Shown: piece by piece, positions 5,896-61,830 of the stretch
Position numbering within the stretch: the first letter of the stretch is position 1
Layout: the number at the start of each line of letters is the position of its first letter
Origin: a virus
Lineage: Duplodnaviria > Caudoviricetes
DNA: 64,000 bases
Direction: 5' to 3' (one strand)
IMG/VR virus record: IMGVR_UViG_3300020577_013187
Span: 1 to 64,000 of that record
The notes under the pieces: generated by a model
Seen by the model: only the letters and a program-made list of their open reading frames with translations
The model's database searches: none
Told to the model about the DNA's origin: nothing
Translations under genes and position numbers: made by a program

Positions 5896-8226
5896 TTAGC
5901 AATCGTCACAGCACTCAAAATTATATTCAGGATATTTTATGATCCACCTTAAAACTACTCCAACAGCTTTTAATCGAATAATTAAATCTTGAACAACTTC
6001 CATTGCTTTTTTTGTTCCAGTAATGTAAGCAGCATAATCACTTCCATCGTCTTTAGGATCATATCCCTTTGCTTCTGGAATATAATTAATTATTTCATTA
6101 GGGTTATGATCTTTAAGAAAAGTATATGCTGAATCTAAGATTAAGGTTGAATTATTTGGTCTCCCTATATAGGGAACTAAAGTTTCCTCATTATTTCTAC
6201 CAAAATCAAAAACTAAATATCCTATTTCGTTAGGAATGTCACTTGCATCATCAACTGAAATTATAACAGGATTTGCATTTGCTGTAACTGATGATTTTAA
6301 AACAGTTCTTTTTTTAGAAGGATAAAAGTTAGCTTTTGGATTATAAATAAATGAATTCAAATAGTTAGGATTCATAAATCGACCATTTGAAACTGGAGTT
6401 TTAGCAATAGCAACTTTAATTCCTGCACCCGAAAACCCCAAGTCAACTTCTATTCTATTTCTATCTAAAATTCTATAATACAGGGGCACAAAAATACTAT
6501 CACCAATATAAAAATTAAAAATAATATCTTTAGTGTTTAAATTATGTTCAACAATAAAATACTGACTCGGACTTGATTGAGTAAAAATAAAAGTAGGCTT
6601 TAAAACAGCCATATGACCAGTAATAGGAGTAAAAAGGAGTAAGTGTAAAGTATTAGCACTAGTAGCCTGAATCAAACTAGACCCACCACCATCTGTAGCA
6701 AAATAAAAATCTGTGCCTTGATAACAAGTAACAACTGGAAATTCAGTATTTAAATTATGATTAACAGTCCAGTCAGCTGACGCTATACCTTGAGTATGAA
6801 GATAGTCAGGATTAATAAAAACAATACGACCTGAAGCAGAAAAAGATAGATCAAAATCTGCTTGAGTATTGCTCAACGCTTGATAGTTAATGCTATTAAT
6901 TATCTCTAAAGGAAGTCCTGTATCAGTATAGAATCCCAAACTTAAATATTTAGCATAATTATGAGTGATAGTGTTATTCCCAATAAAAAAATCAAAATTA
7001 TATTTACTAACTCCTTTAAGAAAAACTGATAGATCCGACTCACTTTTAAAATTAACTGTTAAAATATTTTGACCAGCACCATGACTTTGGACAACTGCTT
7101 CAGCTATATCTAAACCAAATTTTTGATTGGCTAATTGATTGTTAGTAACGGTTTTAGATAGATTCTGAACCATTGATTTTCCTACGTTATCAACAGTAAA
7201 AATATTTCCTATAATGGGTGTATTTAAATGTATTGATCCTTTTAAACTTCTTCTAAGTTTTGCAACTAATCGAGGTAATTTAATGACAATTTCTCTAGGA
7301 TTGATTTCATAAATAACTGTATTAAATTGTAAAGTATCAATTGTATTTAAACTAGTAGGAAAATTCAAAATAGCATTGGCAGTCCCTCCAATAACTTGAA
7401 TTTGACCAAAAGATCCTGTTGTATTAGTTCTAAGATTGACATATCTATTTGTTGTTAAATCTTTTCTAATCTCAGAAGCCGTAGCTTTAGAGTCATTTCC
7501 ATTTAAAGCATTAGAAACTTCTTGAGCCGTAGCTGATAAAAGATTAGAAATATATTTAGGAATAACATCTAGATTAATCTGAGGATCATTATCAATTTTG
7601 ACATTTAAGACTTTAGCTACGTAGCCCCTAGCTGTTGTTGAGACCGTATCATTTAAAAACTTATCTTGAATAACTAAAGTCGTATTGTTGATAATATTTA
7701 TTATTTTTACAAAAGTGCTATTAGGTTGGCCTGTAATTTTTATATAATTTCCCACCGTTAACTCAGTAGTAAAAAGAGTTCCCACACCTGTTACTGTATT
7801 TCCATTTTTACTAAAAGTTAAAATTCCAGTAAGACCAAAATCACCACCAAAATTATAATTTTGAGCATTATTTGAATTAACATTTGCTCTGGAATAAGTA
7901 GGACCCCAAAAAACATCTAAAACATCATACATTGTCTTACGAACTTGTTTAGGAGCATAAGACATTGCATAAATCAAATCTCTATAGTAGATATCTTCCA
8001 AAGCCACATACAAAGGTCTAGGTACATCTACATTTAATCCAAGATTGGTTAGATAGCGATCTACAGCTGTAGCAACAAACAATTGCTCATTAGTATTGAC
8101 AACTTCTGTATTGATAAGCTCATCTTCTTGAGCCCAAGCTTTTACCAAAGCACCTACAAGCCTATTATTTTTAGGGTTATAGATATCCGGTAGAGTGCTA
8201 TAGTATCTTTCAAGTTTACTTGACAT
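5896..8226 (-). CDS. Baseplate wedge protein
   Basis: Directly downstream of baseplate J-like gene; N-terminal helical wedge-like region, HNL repeats, C-terminal KAVGV motif. Confidence 0.7.
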   Translation of the reverse strand: MSSKLERYYSTLPDIYNPKNNRLVGALVKAWAQEDELINTEVVNTNEQLFVATAVDRYLTNLGLNVDVPRPLYVALEDIYYRDLIYAMSYAPKQVRKTMYDVLDVFWGPTYSRANVNSNNAQNYNFGGDFGLTGILTFSKNGNTVTGVGTLFTTELTVGNYIKITGQPNSTFVKIINIINNTTLVIQDKFLNDTVSTTARGYVAKVLNVKIDNDPQINLDVIPKYISNLLSATAQEVSNALNGNDSKATASEIRKDLTTNRYVNLRTNTTGSFGQIQVIGGTANAILNFPTSLNTIDTLQFNTVIYEINPREIVIKLPRLVAKLRRSLKGSIHLNTPIIGNIFTVDNVGKSMVQNLSKTVTNNQLANQKFGLDIAEAVVQSHGAGQNILTVNFKSESDLSVFLKGVSKYNFDFFIGNNTITHNYAKYLSLGFYTDTGLPLEIINSINYQALSNTQADFDLSFSASGRIVFINPDYLHTQGIASADWTVNHNLNTEFPVVTCYQGTDFYFATDGGGSSLIQATSANTLHLLLFTPITGHMAVLKPTFIFTQSSPSQYFIVEHNLNTKDIIFNFYIGDSIFVPLYYRILDRNRIEVDLGFSGAGIKVAIAKTPVSNGRFMNPNYLNSFIYNPKANFYPSKKRTVLKSSVTANANPVIISVDDASDIPNEIGYLVFDFGRNNEETLVPYIGRPNNSTLILDSAYTFLKDHNPNEIINYIPEAKGYDPKDDGSDYAAYITGTKKAMEVVQDLIIRLKAVGVVLRWIIKYPEYNFECCDDC

Positions 8227-43542: not shown

Positions 43543-44706
43543 CTAACCTTTTACGCATAGAATTTGCTTTAATTCAACAACTATTTCAACTAAATCATTC
43601 TGATTCTTCATTACTTGATCAATGTCTTTATAAGCTCCTGGAATTTCATCTAAAACATCCAAATCCTTTCTACACTCAACACCTAGAGTTTGATTTTCTA
43701 AGTCAAGTAATGAAAAATGTTTTTTAGCTTTGCTCCTACTCATTCTTCGACCTGCCCCATGAGAAGCACTATTAAAAGATTCAGGATTTTCCAAACCTTT
43801 TACAATATAGGATTTCGTTCCCATTGACCCAGGAATAATTCCAAACTCACCTTTTTTAGCACTAATAGCTCCTTTACGAGTAACTATTACATCTTCACCA
43901 AAATGAGTTTCCTCAGAAACATAATTATGATGGCAAGTAATCATAAAAGAAGTGGTAAGCTGAGGAAAGAATTGCTTTAAAGTTTTTATATAGAGCTCAA
44001 GCATAACTTCTCTATTTAAAAAAGCATACCTTTGAGCCCAAAAAAGATCTTTTTTATATTCAAACATTTCATAAGTTTTGGCTAAAAAAACAGCTAAATC
44101 AGGGTCAGGAAGATCTTTATTATAAATTAAATTTTTAGCTCTATTAATATGAAATTCGGCCAATGTTTTACCTATATGTCTTGATCCTGAATGTAACATT
44201 AGCCATATGATATTATTAGCATCTAGACAAAGTTCAATAAAATGATTCCCATTACCTAATGTGCCAACTTGTTTTAAAGCTTTTTCTAATAATAGCTGTA
44301 CAGGAGCATTGAGCTCTTTAAATTCACTAAATAGATCAGCTACGCCTTTAGACTGAACCATTTTCTCATGTTGATTAAAGCCAACTGGAATATTCTTTTC
44401 AATTTCACTTCTTATTGTTTTGAGATTATCAGGTAGATCTTTAGCATTTAAATTCGTTTTAATAGCTGTCATTCCACAGCCTATATCTACCCCCACAGCT
44501 GCAGGAGAAACAGCTTGTTTCATAGCTATAACTGATCCTACAGTAGCCCCTTTGCCATAATGAACATCAGGCATAACAGCTACATGATGAAAAACCCAAG
44601 GCAATGATGATATATTCTTAAGTTGATTAAGGGCTTCAGACTCTACTTCATTAATATCTGTCCAAAGTTTAATGGGAATTCCATCATATTCTATTTTAGA
44701 GATCAT
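43543..44706 (-). CDS. rtcB: RtcB-family RNA ligase
   Basis: MPDVHYG, VGVDIGCG, GTLGNGNHFIE, LHSGSR, CHHN, PGSMG, SHGAGR, DEIPGAYKDI. Confidence 0.97.
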   Translation of the reverse strand: MISKIEYDGIPIKLWTDINEVESEALNQLKNISSLPWVFHHVAVMPDVHYGKGATVGSVIAMKQAVSPAAVGVDIGCGMTAIKTNLNAKDLPDNLKTIRSEIEKNIPVGFNQHEKMVQSKGVADLFSEFKELNAPVQLLLEKALKQVGTLGNGNHFIELCLDANNIIWLMLHSGSRHIGKTLAEFHINRAKNLIYNKDLPDPDLAVFLAKTYEMFEYKKDLFWAQRYAFLNREVMLELYIKTLKQFFPQLTTSFMITCHHNYVSEETHFGEDVIVTRKGAISAKKGEFGIIPGSMGTKSYIVKGLENPESFNSASHGAGRRMSRSKAKKHFSLLDLENQTLGVECRKDLDVLDEIPGAYKDIDQVMKNQNDLVEIVVELKQILCVKG

Positions 44707-55489: not shown

Positions 55490-56566
55490 TTAATGAAAAT
55501 CAGATTGTTCCTTCAAAAGATAATCATCATTAATTAGTTTAACAAGCTTATGGCCTTCAGGAGAACGAATAACAACACCTTCTTTTACCTTTTGAGCAGA
55601 AGAAAGAACAGAATCACCTGTAGCTAATTTTTTAGCATGGGCTTCATTAAAAGGTCCCTTGTATAAAATAGGAACTAAAGGAAGGTCTCTCTCTTTACAA
55701 AATTTTTCTAAGGTTTCATGATCTTGATAAACACCATTAATCTTTAAATCAAAGATAACAAGTTTTTTTTCAAGAGTCTCACAACCATAATCATAGTTTT
55801 TTTGAACTCCTGAACCATAGACTTCACCATAAATAATTTCACCATGTTTTAACTTTTTTTCAATATCATATTTTTCAACCATTTGATTATAAATATCTTG
55901 CCTATAAAAACCTTTTTTGCCACCACCATTTTGCAGTTGAACATTATGAGAACCATAGCAAAATTGAGTTTTAGGAGCAAGACCAAAAAACTTTTTAATC
56001 TTCTTCCAAATAGTATCAGCATTATAATCGAGAATACCAGCACGCCAATTAGAACCATGGATTTTTTCAGTAATTACACATGATTCACCACTAGTAAAAA
56101 AGTTGTTAAAATTCTTATAGTTTTCAATACTAGTATATTTACTAAAATCAGGATGAACTTGTTTTTTACTGGCTTGCCTTAGATTAGATTGAGGACCTAA
56201 ATCAACAGGCGGCTCATATTTTGTAATACCTAATCTTTCTGTAACATCAGCACCTTCTTTAAATCCAATTAAATCAAGCTCTTGAAGGCTAGTAACTAAT
56301 CCTTGAGATACTAATCCTCTAATTCTTATAGTTCTAATTCTTGATTTTGATAGTTTAATTTTTGAATCAGGAGGAAAGATCTTATTCTCAAGATCTTTTG
56401 GAAGAACTGAATCAATAGGAATATAACAACATAGATCTCCTGTCTTGTAAAGATCTTTTTGAACTACACAGTTCCAACCTTTGATAACCGCTATCTCTAA
56501 TTTTTGAGCATTGGGATGCTCAATTATATTATCTATCTTTAATACTTCAACTTTTAGTGTACTCAT
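55490..56566 (-). CDS. RNA ligase, DRB0094 (Rnl5-like) family
   Basis: N-terminal OB-like domain (HPNAQKLEIA...YIPIDS), motif I TEKIHG, GEVYG, FDL, EGVV, KLIN. Confidence 0.92.
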   Translation of the reverse strand: MSTLKVEVLKIDNIIEHPNAQKLEIAVIKGWNCVVQKDLYKTGDLCCYIPIDSVLPKDLENKIFPPDSKIKLSKSRIRTIRIRGLVSQGLVTSLQELDLIGFKEGADVTERLGITKYEPPVDLGPQSNLRQASKKQVHPDFSKYTSIENYKNFNNFFTSGESCVITEKIHGSNWRAGILDYNADTIWKKIKKFFGLAPKTQFCYGSHNVQLQNGGGKKGFYRQDIYNQMVEKYDIEKKLKHGEIIYGEVYGSGVQKNYDYGCETLEKKLVIFDLKINGVYQDHETLEKFCKERDLPLVPILYKGPFNEAHAKKLATGDSVLSSAQKVKEGVVIRSPEGHKLVKLINDDYLLKEQSDFH

Positions 56567-57624: not shown

Positions 57625-57653
57625 ATTATACACTAGTCTATCTAACATTTCAA
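57625..57653 (-). promoter_or_regulatory. Phage early-type promoter
   Basis: TTGAAA-17 nt ending AGTG-TATAAT. Confidence 0.7.
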
Positions 57654-57661
57654 GTTTTTTA

Positions 57662-57823
57662 TCAGTCCCAAGAAAAATATCTAAAATAAATAATGCCAAT
57701 GACTCTTTCTTCTTCTTGAATAGAAGGAGTGAGGTCACTCATTCTTTTAGTGATAGAGTCATAGTTAAGAATTAAAACAAAACAGAGAAATAACAGGATG
57801 AGCGGAGCAATGGGGCTCTTCAT
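57662..57823 (-). CDS. 53-aa membrane protein (not in ORF track)
   Basis: MKSPIAPLILLFLCFVLILNY...; GAGGA RBS. Confidence 0.6.
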   Translation of the reverse strand: MKSPIAPLILLFLCFVLILNYDSITKRMSDLTPSIQEEERVIGIIYFRYFSWD

Positions 57824-57926
57824 AAAATCCTCAAATTAAATGGGGTTAAAAAACTAGGTAACGATATATTTCGGTGTACCACTCCAAAAAAAAATATAAT
57901 TTTTACTGTACAAATATTTTTAAGAC

Positions 57927-58067
57927 TTAAATGCTTTTGTCGTGATTTGCAAGGTTATTCAGAGCTTTAATTCTGCCCTCTTGCATCTCTTTACCTATCT
58001 CATCCAAAGTCTTTTTCTTCTTAACTTTCTCTTTGGGTTTAGGTTTAGAGTTTTCTTTCTTTTTCAT
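57927..58067 (-). CDS. 46-aa Lys-rich transposon passenger peptide
   Basis: MKKKENSKPKPKEKVKKKKTLDEIGKEMQEGRIKALNNLANHDKSI; TAATG overlap. Confidence 0.55.
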   Translation of the reverse strand: MKKKENSKPKPKEKVKKKKTLDEIGKEMQEGRIKALNNLANHDKSI

Positions 58068-58201
58068 TAGTTAGGTAGTTTGGGCTTCTTCAATAAAGGT
58101 TTTAGCATCTTTTTAAGGTCAATGTTTTTGCCCTGCTCATACTTTGCTATAAGTTCTTTATCTGTTAGCCCTTTTACTGGCTTTGGCTGCTTTGCTTTCA
58201 T
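58067..58201 (-). CDS. 44-aa Lys-rich transposon passenger peptide
   Basis: MKAKQPKPVKGLTDKELIAKYEQGKNIDLKKMLKPLLKKPKLPN; starts 1 nt after the HNH stop. Confidence 0.55.
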   Translation of the reverse strand: MKAKQPKPVKGLTDKELIAKYEQGKNIDLKKMLKPLLKKPKLPN

Positions 58202-58202
58202 C

Positions 58203-59321
58203 TTAAATGTAGTAACCTTTAAGTTTGTCAAAAGTTAATTCCAGTCCGCATTTTTTCAATGCGTCTTTTTTCTTTTCATATAGGATTTTTAACCTCTTTA
58301 TTTTTTCTTCCTCCCTGCCAAGATGAACTGCTCTGTGGCAAGTAGGGCAAAGTGAAGTTATATTTTCCTCTCTGTCAATATTTGTTGGCAGTAAAGTATC
58401 TTGAAAAGCCATTGGTATTAAATGATGGCTTTCTGAAAAGTTAATTCCTCTTTTTGTAAAGAAAGTCATGTGTCCTGCATCAATTTCACAGGCATAATCT
58501 ACCTTAGAAAGAGCAGTTTTAGCTAATCTCGAATTAGTTTTGAATGACTTTCTTCCTGCTCCTAAAACCAATACTGGTACTCTATTGTTTTGCTTATCCA
58601 ATTCACTTGCAGCAAGTGGTTTTACATTTTGAATTTTAAGTTGGTCGGTCAAATCAAAATCGTCTGCGTGTTTCTTTTGAGTGAGTAGAAATTCCTCAAC
58701 TATGGATTTAGGCACAACTCTTACAGCAGTCTTTTCAAGAAAATGAACCTCTAAAAAATAGTACCTACCAAAACAAATATCCGATAGATATTGGATAGTA
58801 CTTTGATTCTTTAATTGATATACATATTTTCCAATAAAATCACTTTCTGTACTGTAATATTTTAAGGCTTTATTTTTTGTAATAGAATGCGCTGCTTGTC
58901 TTGACCTCATAAAGTTATATTCCTTTACAAAGAATAGAACTAATGATATGTAAAAATATTCAGGATTTATATTATCCGAAAAAGTGAGAGTATTTACATC
59001 ATCAAAAATCATTTCAAGGCAGGTTTTTCTATAAGCCTTGTTGTTTTTGAACTTCACCAATGAATCTACCTGAGATGAAATATAACTCATTATTCCATCG
59101 CTTTCTTTGCCATCCGAATATTTAAAATGCTCCCCAACGAAAGTCATTACCTCTTTCTTAAATGAGGGTGTATCTGTTAGCATAGATGAACCCGCATTAT
59201 GAACAGCTTGATTGCCTATTCCTAATGGATTGAAGTCTTTGAATGCCATGAAACTACCTATGTTCATTCTTTGGGGTTCTACTATTTCTAATTCTTTAGA
59301 GGGGAAGAGATGCTCTATCAT
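58203..59321 (-). CDS. HNH endonuclease (restriction-type)
   Basis: YACE...ESHHLIPM...ENITSLCPTCHRAVH. Confidence 0.9.
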   Translation of the reverse strand: MIEHLFPSKELEIVEPQRMNIGSFMAFKDFNPLGIGNQAVHNAGSSMLTDTPSFKKEVMTFVGEHFKYSDGKESDGIMSYISSQVDSLVKFKNNKAYRKTCLEMIFDDVNTLTFSDNINPEYFYISLVLFFVKEYNFMRSRQAAHSITKNKALKYYSTESDFIGKYVYQLKNQSTIQYLSDICFGRYYFLEVHFLEKTAVRVVPKSIVEEFLLTQKKHADDFDLTDQLKIQNVKPLAASELDKQNNRVPVLVLGAGRKSFKTNSRLAKTALSKVDYACEIDAGHMTFFTKRGINFSESHHLIPMAFQDTLLPTNIDREENITSLCPTCHRAVHLGREEEKIKRLKILYEKKKDALKKCGLELTFDKLKGYYI

Positions 59322-60448
59322 AGATTCAAATACTCAATATTATTTGGCGAATATGCAAATAAATTGGTATTCTTTTCTTTAGATAGGTTTTCTATTCTTT
59401 TCTTCATTATTTTGTAAGGCTCATCATATTTTTCCACGATATAGCAACTTCTGTTTTTCTTCATTGCAACTGCAAGGGTAGTTCCACTACCTCCAAACAG
59501 GTCAATTACTAAATCATTTTCTTTTGTAGCTATATCAATAAGCCATGCTATAAGCCTTTCAGGTTTTTTAGAATCTTTAAAATCACAACCATCACCACCC
59601 TCTTTGTGTGTATTGGTTACTTCATCTGTAAAGTCTAAATCATTGCAGGGTAAAATAGGTCTGCCTGCTCCATAACTGGATTGATAATATACTCCACTTT
59701 GTCTTTTATCATTTTGAGTTTGGAACCATCTGTAACCGTTACCACCATTTTCCAAACCATTAACCTTGATTAATTTGTCGTCACCAAGTTTGCGTAAATG
59801 AGTTTCAAACCATTCTCCTGACCAATTTGCAGTCTTAATTTTACCTGCAATTATATACCTTCTTAAATCTTCTTTTGTACCCGTACCCTTTACAATTTCA
59901 TACTGCTCCTTATCGTAAATTTCTACCTCTTTACCATTCAGGATTTTTTTCACAGGGTTCTTATCCTTAATCTTTATTTTGTAGTTGAACTTCTCAATTT
60001 TAGGGTCTTTGTAATCACAATAGAAACGAGTAGTTTTTGTTTTTCTGTAAATAAGGATATATTCATAAACATCGTGGTATGTAGCATTAATCATTAGCTG
60101 CCTATCCTTGTGCCTTATTTTTATAGGGAATAATCCAACAAAATTTGCCTCTGTAAAAAAGGTATCAATTATGTTTTTAAGATTGAACAATTTCATTTGA
60201 TTAATCGAAACAGCAAGGAATCCATCATTGTCAAGCATTTCATAGCAGTCATTAATTACTTGCTCAATAAATAATGACCACAATACGTTACTGTCATTGT
60301 AATATTTTCTTGCCCCTCTATTTCTTCGTGAATTATAAGGTGGGTCAAGGTAAATCAACTTAGCTTTTTTTTCTAAGTCTTTTTTATGGGTTTTATAGAG
60401 ATTGCGGGAATCTCCTAAAATAACTTTGTATTTGTTTTTACTTTTCAT
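59318..60448 (-). CDS. Beta-class amino (N6A/N4C) DNA methyltransferase
   Basis: LIYLDPPY precedes KKPERL and DLFGGSGTT. Confidence 0.92.
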   Translation of the reverse strand: MKSKNKYKVILGDSRNLYKTHKKDLEKKAKLIYLDPPYNSRRNRGARKYYNDSNVLWSLFIEQVINDCYEMLDNDGFLAVSINQMKLFNLKNIIDTFFTEANFVGLFPIKIRHKDRQLMINATYHDVYEYILIYRKTKTTRFYCDYKDPKIEKFNYKIKIKDKNPVKKILNGKEVEIYDKEQYEIVKGTGTKEDLRRYIIAGKIKTANWSGEWFETHLRKLGDDKLIKVNGLENGGNGYRWFQTQNDKRQSGVYYQSSYGAGRPILPCNDLDFTDEVTNTHKEGGDGCDFKDSKKPERLIAWLIDIATKENDLVIDLFGGSGTTLAVAMKKNRSCYIVEKYDEPYKIMKKRIENLSKEKNTNLFAYSPNNIEYLNL

Positions 60449-61398
60449 TTTTGGATTAATTCTTTGTAGGTCAACCTATCTTCTGCATTAAGCAGGGATA
60501 AAGAAAACCTGTTACCGTCTGTCGTTTTACGAGTATTGTATCTGTATGCAAACTCATCACAGTATTTATTCAGGTGTTTTGCGCTTGCAGAATGATAGAT
60601 TCCAAAGATTCCTCTTTTCATCAAACTCCAAAAGCCTTCGATACCGTTGGTATGGAAATTATTGTCATTAATAAATTGCCCTTCGTTGTGTTTCAAAACT
60701 TCGTGTTGGTAGTCCTTGTTCAATCCGTTGTAAGCTGTCCATTCATCCGTTACCATAATTGCGCCTTTTTCTACCATAGATGCAATGATAGGCTTTAAAG
60801 TCTTTGATTTTGTATCAGGCACAACAGAAATATTAACTAAACCGCTGTTTAAAAGACCAAACACGGGAGTTTTATCTTTTGTGCTGCGCCCCTGTGATTC
60901 TTTAACCTTTTTTGAAGCGTGACGATTTTTGTTTTTCCCTCCAAAATAACTTTCATCTGCCTGTGTCGGTGTGCTACCAAATTTCACTTTAGTTTTTACC
61001 TTAAATGAATTTCTTAACCGACCTAAAACAAACCATGCAGTTTTTTGAGTAATCCCCAAATCCCTTGCAAGTTGGTGTGAAGAAATACCTTTTTTGTGTG
61101 AAGCGAAAATGTAGGTAGCAATAAACCACTTTCTAAGTGGCAAGTGCGAACCTTCAAACATAGTTCCAACGGTTACAGTAAATCGCTCCCTGCAATCCTT
61201 GCATTTTCTTAAACCCTTAAACTCACCTTTTGTTTTCAATTCGTAGTGTGCTTTGTTTTTGCTTCCGCAATGAGGACAAACTGGCTCCCCGTTCCATCTT
61301 AACTGCTCTAAAAATAATCTGCATTCTGTTTCAGTATTAAGTACTGATAACATTTCTGTGAAAGACTTGAATGCTGTGGGTTGTACTGACTTTTTCAT
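60445..61398 (-). CDS. IS1595-family (ISXO2-like) transposase
   Basis: Zn ribbon CPHC...CKDC, HTH, QADESY, MVTDEW, HTNGIEGFWS, EFAYRYN. Confidence 0.96.
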   Translation of the reverse strand: MKKSVQPTAFKSFTEMLSVLNTETECRLFLEQLRWNGEPVCPHCGSKNKAHYELKTKGEFKGLRKCKDCRERFTVTVGTMFEGSHLPLRKWFIATYIFASHKKGISSHQLARDLGITQKTAWFVLGRLRNSFKVKTKVKFGSTPTQADESYFGGKNKNRHASKKVKESQGRSTKDKTPVFGLLNSGLVNISVVPDTKSKTLKPIIASMVEKGAIMVTDEWTAYNGLNKDYQHEVLKHNEGQFINDNNFHTNGIEGFWSLMKRGIFGIYHSASAKHLNKYCDEFAYRYNTRKTTDGNRFSLSLLNAEDRLTYKELIQK

Positions 61399-61469
61399 AT
61401 ATTCGTGCTTTAATTACAGTACAAATATAAGTCAAATAATTGGTACATCCAAATATATCGTTACCAAAA

Positions 61470-61497
61470 ACTATATCAGATTTTAAGATTTTTTCAA
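61470..61497 (-). promoter_or_regulatory. Phage promoter whose -10 overlaps the transposon target site
   Basis: TTGAAA-16 nt-TATAGT; TSD (TAGTTTTT on minus) shares the last four -10 bases. Confidence 0.65.
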
Positions 61498-61505
61498 GAA
61501 GAAAA

Positions 61506-61537
61506 AGTGTCCCACTATTTAAACTTTATGGGACACT
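61506..61537 (-). terminator. Intrinsic terminator
   Basis: AGTGTCCCA/TGGGACACT stem plus TTTTT on minus strand. Confidence 0.7.
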
Positions 61538-61566
61538 AGATAGGCTAGTGTATGGTGAGCAGGACA

Positions 61567-61830
61567 CTATCTCTCTATAGCTTTACTAAAAACCATTATC
61601 AGAGCATGATTCATAATGGAAGCCTTATGACACAAAATCCAGCCCTCAGTTTGTAAAGATTTTTTAAAATCATGAGCTAGATCAATAAACTTTTCATTAA
61701 TGACAGTTATCTCACAAACATAGTGAGTTCTTGAGACATTAACATTCAGAATAATATCGTCTCGATAACTCTGAGCTCTTAATAACTCTAACATAGCCTT
61801 TATTTTGACAGGTAAAATAGAAGTATTCAT
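61567..61830 (-). CDS. Hypothetical protein
   Basis: 87-aa ORF. Confidence 0.6.
   Translation of the reverse strand: MNTSILPVKIKAMLELLRAQSYRDDIILNVNVSRTHYVCEITVINEKFIDLAHDFKKSLQTEGWILCHKASIMNHALIMVFSKAIER

What the first reader, a model, noticed from the sequence alone, without database searches (positions are those of the whole stretch)
57849..61473. Intact IS1595 transposon delivering a methyltransferase-HNH (restriction-modification-like) cassette into a phage
Seen: 25-bp TIRs (23/25), a perfect 8-bp TSD, and one translationally coupled operon: transposase (ATGA) MTase (ATGA) HNH, then two micro-ORFs. All frames are intact, so the insertion is recent. Established: IS1595 elements make 8-bp TSDs and some carry passengers. 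Inference: a compact mobile R-M or defence unit now arming a phage against host DNA or competing phages, or an addiction module; a transposable R-M riding a virulent-looking phage is unusual.
Basis: partly seen in the sequence, partly recalled or inferred. Interest (0 to 1): 0.82.

Follow-up and report, generated by a model that had tools for sequence, protein, structure and literature searches.

The report
Restriction-modification transposon inside a phage
A 3.6-kb jumping gene of the known IS1595 family sits intact in a tailed-phage genome and carries a DNA methylase and a DNA-cutting enzyme; sister copies carry other restriction systems in the same slot.

Summary
A 3,609-bp element (57857-61465) has 25-bp inverted repeats (23/25) and a perfect 8-bp duplication, AAAAACTA. 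It holds one minus-strand operon: IS1595 transposase, beta-class DNA methyltransferase, HNH nuclease and two micro-ORFs, with overlapping stop and start codons.

The contig is a tailed phage (head, protease, sheath and baseplate genes).

The methylase-nuclease pair recurs as a unit, without any transposase, in unrelated bacterial contigs; one homologue lies on an archaeal contig. It is therefore captured cargo and most likely a Type II-like restriction-modification system. Activity is untested.

The transposase belongs to a Bacteroidota clade (up to 83% identity). Its members share the repeat ends and 8-bp duplications in AT-rich targets. They also share a conserved 40-53-aa micro-protein gene, so the first "micro-ORF" is backbone, not cargo.

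Between the transposase stop and that gene, sister elements carry other modules: C5 methylase with a SacI-like enzyme, BcgI-like systems (one in a phage-like contig), GmrSD, or an orphan methylase.

A 1.3-kb metagenome contig repeats the transposase-methylase junction at 85.5% identity.

A second, unrelated IS1595 cargo element lies 3.4 kb away in the same phage.

No empty site was found. The benefit to the phage is inference.

Earlier notes of this scan report similar restriction-modification-carrying IS1595 elements on other DNA. This is a new member of a known kind.

The parts
57849..57856 (.). left copy of the 8-bp target-site duplication (AAAAACTA)
   Evidence: Read. Identical to 61466-61473 and abuts the left inverted repeat.
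57857..57881 (.). left terminal inverted repeat (distal to the transposase)
   Evidence: pair I2: 25 nt, 23/25 complementary to 61441-61465. 94% identical to the matching end of L196.
57903..57917 (-). near copy of the transposase-proximal promoter-like block; on the minus strand it faces out of the element
   Evidence: family D20: 14/15 identical to 61414-61428, in direct orientation. Any function is inference.
57927..58067 (-). second micro-ORF, 46 aa, lysine-rich, no clear homologue
   Evidence: Its ATG overlaps the previous stop (TAATG). No family hit. Absent from L196, where only 38 nt separate the first micro-ORF from the repeat. Lysine-rich ORFs of similar size lie at the same place in L113 and L118, with no demonstrated homology.
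58067..58201 (-). conserved backbone micro-protein gene (44 aa counted from the ATG at 58201)
   Evidence: 90% aa identical to the 43-aa ORF of L196. The motif KGL(T/S)D..L..KYE.G is shared with L197, L201, L113, L121 and L116. In L116 it directly follows the transposase with no cargo.
58203..59321 (-). HNH nuclease, 372 aa: a confident helical N-terminal domain (1-215) and a C-terminal HNH motif; the putative restriction enzyme of the cargo
   Evidence: PF01844, E 1e-4. Its HNH region aligns to E. coli McrA 6ghc, E 6e-4. 42 homologues, with 69 invariant columns across 33 sequences, including the HNH histidines, asparagine and CxxC. The AlphaFold model has mean pLDDT 78.6.
59318..60448 (-). 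beta-class N6-adenine/N4-cytosine DNA methyltransferase, 376 aa; DPPY motif near the N-terminus, FGGSG motif near the C-terminus
   Evidence: PF01555, E 1e-30. PADLOC Type III/II methyltransferase profiles. Nearest solved structures are Type III Mod subunits, M.MboIIA, M.PvuII and CcrM. More than 331 homologues, the best at 92%.
60445..61398 (-). IS1595-family DDE transposase with an N-terminal zinc ribbon, 317 aa, full length
   Evidence: NF033547, E 5e-59; PF12762, E 2.5e-40; PF12760, E 3e-13. Closest relatives are 83-74% identical and nearly all from Bacteroidota.
61399..61440 (-). leader between the repeat and the transposase ATG, with a conserved TTAT(A/C)TTTG block
   Evidence: The block is conserved in WIN, L113, L115, L121 and L116. 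The match to the Bacteroidota -7 promoter consensus is from my own knowledge and is not tested.
61441..61465 (.). right terminal inverted repeat (proximal to the transposase)
   Evidence: pair I2. Its first 22 nt are identical to the ends of L197 and L198.
61466..61473 (.). right copy of the 8-bp target-site duplication
61470..61497 (-). phage sigma-70-like promoter match (TTGAAA, 16 nt, TATAGT, TG-extended) reading into the element; its -10 box overlaps the duplication
   Evidence: 10 of 12. This is a consensus match only.

Best explanation
This is an intact transporter insertion sequence (tIS) of the IS1595 family. It belongs to a Bacteroidota clade and transposed into an intergenic, AT-rich site of a tailed phage genome, in the same direction as phage transcription.

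The transposase, with its zinc ribbon and DDE domain, is expected to bind the 25-bp terminal repeats and to insert with an 8-bp staggered cut. This is inferred from the family.

Between the transposase stop codon and a conserved micro-protein gene lies a cargo slot. Here it holds a two-gene module: a beta-class DNA methyltransferase and an HNH nuclease. These most likely act as a Type II-like restriction-modification pair. The methylase would mark a specific site on resident DNA (element, phage and host). The nuclease would cut DNA lacking the mark.

The operon would be transcribed from the element's own leader and probably also from an upstream phage promoter.

For the phage, the likely consequences are self-methylation, which protects against host systems of the same specificity, and cleavage of unmethylated host or competing phage DNA. 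For the element, the pair may also stabilise its carrier by post-segregational killing.

Shown here: anatomy, family membership, phage context, conserved pairing and cargo exchange among sister elements. Inferred: enzymatic specificity, expression and benefit.
For: - Ends and duplication.
- Transposase family.
- Phage hallmark genes: major head protein, prohead protease, tail sheath, baseplate wedge.
- HNH homologues have the cognate methylase directly upstream in L027, L028, L029 and L030-32 and in a Firmicutes-like NCBI chromosome contig, with no transposase nearby.
- The two proteins diverge together: methylase/HNH identities are 75/57%, 75/67% and 55/53%.
- The methylase also occurs alone (L195), as expected for restriction-modification logic.
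- Sister elements with homologous ends and their own 8-bp duplications carry other restriction systems in the same slot: C5 methylase plus SacI-like enzyme (L196), BcgI-like IIG plus S (L197/198, L201, L115), a fused RMS protein (L118) and GmrSD (L191).
- Backbone homology to L196 stops exactly at the transposase stop and resumes at the micro-ORF ATG.
- L194 repeats the transposase-ATGA-methylase junction at 85.5% nt identity.
- Characterised IS1595 tIS have 25-bp repeats, 8-bp duplications, AT-rich targets and a circular intermediate (PMC5704250).
- Restriction-modification units with inverted repeats and 8-bp duplications, one with a transposase-like gene, were described before (PMC2853133).
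Against: - No empty-site allele or close phage relative was found, so the insertion event is inferred from the duplication alone.
- No biochemical evidence exists for the methylase or the nuclease.
- The HNH motif match is weak (E 1e-4) and its closest named relatives are Type IV enzymes.
- The HNH region of the model has low confidence.
- One HNH homologue (P0004) has no methylase gene upstream on its short contig.
- Only one other instance of this exact transposase-methylase composite was seen, and it is a 1.3-kb fragment.
- The record is estimated 62% complete, so lifestyle and host are unknown.
Confidence: 0.75

Rival explanations
1. Same anatomy, but the phage gains nothing. The element is a selfish hitchhiker that jumped from a host copy during infection. 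The restriction-modification cargo serves only the element, as addiction or defence of its usual bacterial carrier. The phage lineage carrying it may be transient or mildly impaired.
For: - IS elements are generally poorly tolerated in phages (PMC3429520).
- IS1595-like transposases occur in only 4 of 50,697 phage records.
- Most clade members sit in bacterial chromosomes.
- The insertion separates a phage promoter match from the downstream 53-aa gene.
- A second, unrelated IS1595 element lies nearby, which suggests a permissive region rather than selection for this cargo.
Against: - All genes are intact and oriented with phage transcription.
- Sister elements with restriction or methylase cargo also sit in a phage-like contig (L197/198) and in an IMG/VR viral contig (L002).
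- Phage-borne methylases and restriction systems are known to help phages (own knowledge).
Confidence: 0.3
2. The two cargo genes are not a cognate restriction-modification pair. The methylase is an anti-restriction or regulatory enzyme, and the HNH protein is a modification-dependent (Type IV, McrA-like) or non-specific nuclease.
For: - The only named similarities of the HNH region are to McrA (E 6e-4) and a PADLOC Type IV profile (E 2.6e-5).
- Other clade members carry Type IV GmrSD.
- The N-terminal domain has no recognisable fold.
Against: - The similarity to McrA covers only the catalytic HNH region (residues 245-341), not McrA's modified-base reader domain.
- The nuclease gene lies directly downstream of this methylase family in every locus where the upstream sequence could be read, with overlapping codons in L027-L029, and it co-diverges with it.
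- A nuclease that attacks the partner's product would be suicidal.
Confidence: 0.1
3. Assembly chimera: a bacterial IS copy was wrongly joined into a phage contig.
For: The contig comes from a metagenome assembly and repeats can mis-join. No read data were available.
Against: - A mis-join would not produce a perfect 8-bp duplication abutting both repeats.
- Both flanks are phage-like DNA with same-strand small ORFs.
- Removing the element and one duplication copy leaves a short intergenic spacer with a promoter match in front of the next gene.
Confidence: 0.03

Closest known systems
Transporter IS (tIS) of the IS1595 family, e.g. MTnSag1 (tISSag10) and tISCpe8 (PMC5704250; Siguier, Gagnevin and Chandler 2009, which I could not read)
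   Same: IS1595-type DDE transposase, 25-bp terminal inverted repeats, 8-bp target duplication, AT-rich targets, and passenger genes inside the repeats.
   Different: - Those elements are 1.7-2.0 kb, carry a lincosamide resistance gene and live in Firmicutes chromosomes or plasmids.
- This one is 3.6 kb, carries a methylase-nuclease pair plus a conserved micro-protein gene, belongs to a Bacteroidota clade and sits in a phage.
Transposon-like restriction-modification units with inverted repeats and 8-bp duplications (Furuta, Abe and Kobayashi 2010, PMC2853133): the Xanthomonas oryzae Type II unit, and the Neisseria gonorrhoeae Type IIG + S + transposase-motif unit
   Same: A restriction-modification system bounded by imperfect or perfect terminal inverted repeats and an 8-bp duplication. 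The Neisseria unit includes a gene with a transposase motif (COG3677).
   Different: - There the transposase-like gene was judged probably inactive, and the units lie in bacterial chromosomes.
- Here the transposase is full length, the cargo is a different enzyme family, and the target is a phage.
- Sister elements of this clade do carry the BcgI-like IIG + S arrangement.
Phage-encoded restriction-modification systems, e.g. Sau42I of Staphylococcus phage phi42 (cited in PMC2853133) and EcoP1I of P1 (own knowledge)
   Same: A phage genome that carries both a DNA methylase and a cognate nuclease.
   Different: In those phages the system is a resident phage gene set, not the cargo of an intact insertion sequence with its own transposase and target duplication.
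Type II restriction enzymes of the HNH superfamily paired with beta-class methylases (e.g. KpnI, Hpy99I; own knowledge)
   Same: An HNH catalytic motif with a CxxC zinc site, beside an adjacent, co-oriented methylase with overlapping codons.
   Different: No detectable sequence or fold similarity outside the HNH motif. The 215-residue helical N-terminal domain matched nothing in the PDB searches. No recognition site is known.

Membership tests
IS1595 family insertion sequence / tIS | DDE transposase of the IS1595 (ISXO2-like) type with an N-terminal zinc ribbon | tested here: met
   NF033547, 199.7 bits (cut-off 75). PF12762, 138 bits. PF12760, 49.9 bits.
IS1595 family insertion sequence / tIS | Terminal inverted repeats bounding the element | tested here: met
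   25 nt, 23/25. Homologous ends in at least nine sister elements.
IS1595 family insertion sequence / tIS | 8-bp target-site duplication | tested here: met
   AAAAACTA on both sides. Sister elements have 8/8 duplications of their own.
IS1595 family insertion sequence / tIS | Passenger genes inside the repeats (this defines a tIS) | tested here: met
   Methylase and HNH genes lie between the transposase and the distal repeat. The same pair occurs elsewhere without a transposase.
IS1595 family insertion sequence / tIS | Demonstrated transposition (several copies or an empty site) | tested here: inconclusive
   There is one copy in the 72-kb record. No empty site was found. One diverged copy of the same composite junction exists (L194, 85.5% nt).
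ISNwi1 subgroup of IS1595 | Subgroup assignment by transposase phylogeny and end sequence | tested here: inconclusive
   NCBI names the 74%-identical transposase of L113 'IS1595 family transposase ISNwi1'. ISfinder was not available.
Type II restriction-modification system | DNA methyltransferase with a SAM-binding motif and a catalytic (D/S)PPY motif | tested here: met
   PF01555, 107 bits. DPPY and FGGSG motifs are visible in the translation.
Type II restriction-modification system | Separate nuclease gene adjacent to the methylase and conserved as a pair | tested here: met
   Every HNH-homologue locus whose upstream sequence could be read has the methylase directly upstream.
Type II restriction-modification system | Site-specific cleavage that is blocked by the cognate methylation | not testable with these tools
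   Needs expression and cleavage assays.
Type IV (McrA-like) modification-dependent nuclease | Modified-base reader domain and a stand-alone gene without a cognate methylase | tested here: not met
   The alignment to McrA covers only the HNH region. The gene is paired with a methylase across loci. Whether the N-terminal domain shares McrA's fold remains inconclusive.
Type III restriction-modification system | A Mod methylase together with a Res helicase-nuclease subunit | tested here: not met
   The methylase resembles Mod subunits. The partner is a 372-aa HNH protein with no helicase domain, and no Res gene lies in the element.

The most novel reading that the evidence does not exclude
This Bacteroidota IS1595 clade is a dedicated vehicle for restriction and defence modules. 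It has a fixed cargo slot, bounded by the transposase stop codon and a conserved 40-53-aa micro-protein gene. Whole systems are exchanged in that slot: at least four unrelated restriction-modification types, GmrSD and orphan methylases. The clade repeatedly uses phage genomes as carriers. The phage gains self-methylation and a nuclease against host or rival DNA, and the element gains a route between cells.
Probability: 0.4. Interest if true: 0.7.

Novelty: new member of a known kind. Interest (0 to 1): 0.5.

Why it matters
How restriction-modification systems move between genomes is only partly understood, and insertion sequences are thought to be poorly tolerated in phages.

This case shows a complete methylase-nuclease pair packaged with a working-looking transposase, caught inside a phage. 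Its relatives carry other restriction systems in the same position.

That gives a concrete and testable route for the spread of such systems, and for phages to acquire them in a single step. It also flags two uncharacterised proteins worth assaying: an HNH nuclease with an unrecognised N-terminal domain, and a micro-protein conserved in the element backbone.

Tried and rejected
- **Empty site.** A 24-nt reconstruction of the uninterrupted target found nothing in viral contigs or metagenome contigs.
- **Close phage relatives.** The neighbouring RNA ligase has at most 46% identity in IMG/VR. The small flanking ORFs have no matches in those loci. No synteny-based empty site could be obtained.
- **Element DNA against isolated phages.** Only 65-90-nt methylase fragments matched.
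- **HNH protein against isolated phages.** No match.
- **Fold of the HNH protein.** Foldseek against the PDB gave nothing at E <= 0.001. The VIA-align wide search gave a best Z of 3.0. This does not show a new fold.
- **Transposase against solved structures.** No hit.
- **Other composites.** A scan of metagenome contigs with the repeat-end pattern gave 14 loci. None carries the methylase-HNH cargo.
- **Tyrosine integrase.** None in the record. The record is incomplete, so this says little about lifestyle.
- **Literature.** The 2009 IS1595 family paper is not held, so its list of passenger genes could not be checked.
- **Composition.** The contrast as evidence of foreign origin is too small to use.
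- **17-nt inverted motif outside the element** (57628-57644 and 61537-61553). It occurs only twice in the window. I considered it as the ends of a larger element and dropped the idea. The left copy overlaps a promoter match, and nothing else supports a nested element.
Full report
**1. The observation**

- Inverted repeats of 25 nt lie at 57857-57881 and 61441-61465, with 23 of 25 positions complementary.
- The octamer AAAAACTA abuts each repeat on the outside, at 57849-57856 and 61466-61473.
- The element is 3,609 bp long.
- All its long ORFs are on the minus strand:
  - transposase 61398..60445
  - methyltransferase 60448..59318
  - HNH protein 59321..58203
  - two micro-ORFs, 58231..58067 and 58067..57927
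- The transposase-methylase and methylase-HNH junctions are ATGA overlaps.
- The element is single-copy in the 72,232-bp virus record to which the window belongs.

**2. The carrier is a phage**

- PHROG profiles identify a major head protein (E 2e-63), a prohead protease, a tail sheath, a baseplate wedge protein and tail-fibre-like proteins.
- They also identify RtcB and an RNA ligase.
- The major head protein is only about 33% identical to those of SPO1-like Bacillus phages and Bacteroides DAC phages. The phage has no close cultured relative.
- No tyrosine integrase was found. The record is estimated 62% complete, so lifestyle cannot be decided.

**3. The vehicle**

- The 317-aa protein matches the NCBIfam IS1595 transposase model (E 5e-59) and both Pfam IS1595 domains.
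- Its closest relatives are 83-74% identical in the protein collection.
- In species-representative genomes they reach 74% and lie almost exclusively in Bacteroidota: Bacteroidia, Cytophagales, Mucilaginibacter, Saprospiraceae and others.
- NCBI names the 74% relative 'IS1595 family transposase ISNwi1'.
- Many relatives sit in elements with homologous GGTAA(C/T)-type ends and a perfect 8-bp duplication of an AT-rich target. These are L113, L115, L118, L119, L121, L127, L142, L143, L191, L196, L197/198, L201 and the viral contigs L002 and L018.
- This matches the characterised IS1595 tIS, MTnSag1 and tISCpe8. They have 25-bp repeats, 8-bp duplications, AT-rich targets and a circular intermediate (PMC5704250).

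**4. The cargo**

*Methyltransferase*
- It is a beta-class N6-adenine/N4-cytosine enzyme (PF01555).
- The DPPY motif is near the N-terminus and the FGGSG motif near the C-terminus.
- Its nearest solved relatives are Type III Mod subunits, M.MboIIA, M.PvuII and CcrM.

*HNH protein*
- It has a weak but family-conserved HNH motif. Its HNH region aligns to E. coli McrA.
- AlphaFold2 predicts a confident helical N-terminal domain (residues 1-215), for which neither PDB search found a match.

*The pair*
- The HNH family is small, with 42 hits.
- Wherever upstream sequence was available, the same methylase family lies directly upstream, and no transposase is nearby:
  - L027, L028 and L029, where the two genes overlap
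  - L030-32, where they are 43 nt apart
  - a Firmicutes-like NCBI chromosome contig, where they are 13 nt apart
- One HNH homologue lies on an archaeal contig, cut at its upstream end (L026).
- The two proteins diverge in parallel.
- The methylase family is larger, with more than 331 hits, and also occurs alone (L195).
- This is the pattern expected of a Type II-like restriction-modification pair captured as cargo. Enzymatic proof is lacking.

**5. A cargo slot**

- Against L196, whose transposase is 83% identical, nucleotide homology covers three stretches:
  - the proximal repeat plus the transposase, ending at its stop codon
  - a stretch that resumes exactly at the ATG at 58201
  - the distal repeat
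- Everything between is replaced in L196 by a C5 cytosine methylase and a SacI-family enzyme.
- The region that resumes encodes a 40-53-aa lysine-rich protein. It is 90% identical between the two elements.
- That protein is recognisable in L197, L201, L113, L121 and L116. In L116 it directly follows the transposase with no cargo.
- The first 'micro-ORF' is therefore a backbone gene. The second (46 aa) is not demonstrably conserved.
- Other occupants of the slot:
  - BcgI-like Type IIG enzyme plus specificity subunit, in L197/198, L201 and L115 (PADLOC PDLC03608, E 5e-171)
  - a fused version in L118
  - a methylase plus S-like protein in L113
  - GmrSD Type IV enzymes in L191 and L168
  - an orphan N6/N4 methylase in the viral contig L002
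- In the close relatives the cargo start codon overlaps or closely follows the transposase stop.

**6. The same composite elsewhere, and other phages**

- A 1,329-bp contig from an unrelated sequencing run (L194) is 85.5% identical at the nucleotide level. It covers the last 66 transposase codons, the ATGA junction and the whole methylase. The transposase-methylase fusion is therefore a lineage, not a one-off.
- The sister element in L197/198 lies among small same-strand ORFs next to a holin and an endolysin. That context is phage-like and unrelated to this phage.
- Among 50,697 isolated or deposited phage records, only four have any IS1595-like transposase. This is consistent with the reported low tolerance of phages for IS elements (PMC3429520).

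**7. Site of insertion**

- The element lies between a 53-aa ORF (57823..57662) and an 87-aa ORF (61830..61567).
- A sigma-70-like promoter match on the minus strand (61497..61470) has its -10 box overlapping the duplication. After insertion it points into the transposase operon.
- A near copy of the element's own leader block lies at 57903-57917. On the minus strand it points out of the element towards the 53-aa gene (family D20).
- Whether either signal is used is untested.

**8. What is known and what is new**

*Already known*
- Passenger-carrying IS1595 elements are an established class (PMC5704250; the 2009 family paper could not be read).
- Restriction-modification units bounded by inverted repeats and 8-bp duplications were reported in 2010. 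One included a transposase-motif gene and a Type IIG plus S pair (PMC2853133).
- Earlier notes of this scan also list IS1595 elements with restriction-modification cargo on other DNA, some of them in phages. I did not test those.

*New here*
- the phage location of an intact example
- this particular methylase-HNH family as cargo
- the sharply bounded, exchangeable cargo slot with its conserved micro-protein gene

I rate the finding a new member of a known kind, of moderate interest.

**9. Limits**

- No empty site, reads or biochemistry were available.
- Recency is suggested only by the perfect duplication and the intact frames.
- The host phylum is inferred from the relatives of the transposase.
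- The benefit to the phage is inference.

Noticed in passing
L193 3863-6270 (record coordinates 64862-67269, about 860 nt beyond the window end): A second, unrelated IS1595-family cargo element in the same phage. It is 2,408 bp long, with perfect 26-bp inverted repeats and the 8-bp duplication GATAATTG. Its 329-aa transposase is only 27% identical to the first. Its cargo includes DUF6471, a weak WYL-like ORF and a zinc-ribbon ORF. A 57-nt internal inverted repeat flanks the transposase.
   Followed up: partly
window 57628-57644 and 61537-61553: A 17-nt motif occurs only twice in the window, in inverted orientation, 213 and 72 nt outside the two ends of the element. The left copy overlaps an 11/12 sigma-70-like promoter match. 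Its meaning is unknown.
   Followed up: partly
L197 6934-10943 and L198 1561-5570: A 4,010-bp sister element (transposase 80% identical, duplication ATATTTAT) carries a BcgI-like Type IIG enzyme and a specificity subunit. It lies in a phage-like contig next to a holin and an endolysin.
   Followed up: partly
L024 5920-6452 and L018 5922-8081: Two IMG/VR viral contigs share a related repeat end. L018 is a 2,160-bp element. L024 is a 533-bp internally deleted derivative. Each has a perfect 8-bp duplication.
   Followed up: no
L191 4834-7962 and L168 near 5905-7644: IS1595 elements in Bacteroidota genomes carry a GmrSD-type (Type IV) restriction enzyme directly after the transposase.
   Followed up: no
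L026 195-1307: An HNH-family homologue (53% identical) lies on an archaeal contig next to Nop10, eIF2-alpha and ribosomal protein S27e and L44e genes. The cargo family therefore spans bacteria and archaea.
   Followed up: no
window 43543-44706 and 55490-56566: The phage encodes an RtcB-type RNA ligase and a second RNA ligase. This suggests an RNA-repair set, possibly against host anticodon nucleases.
   Followed up: no
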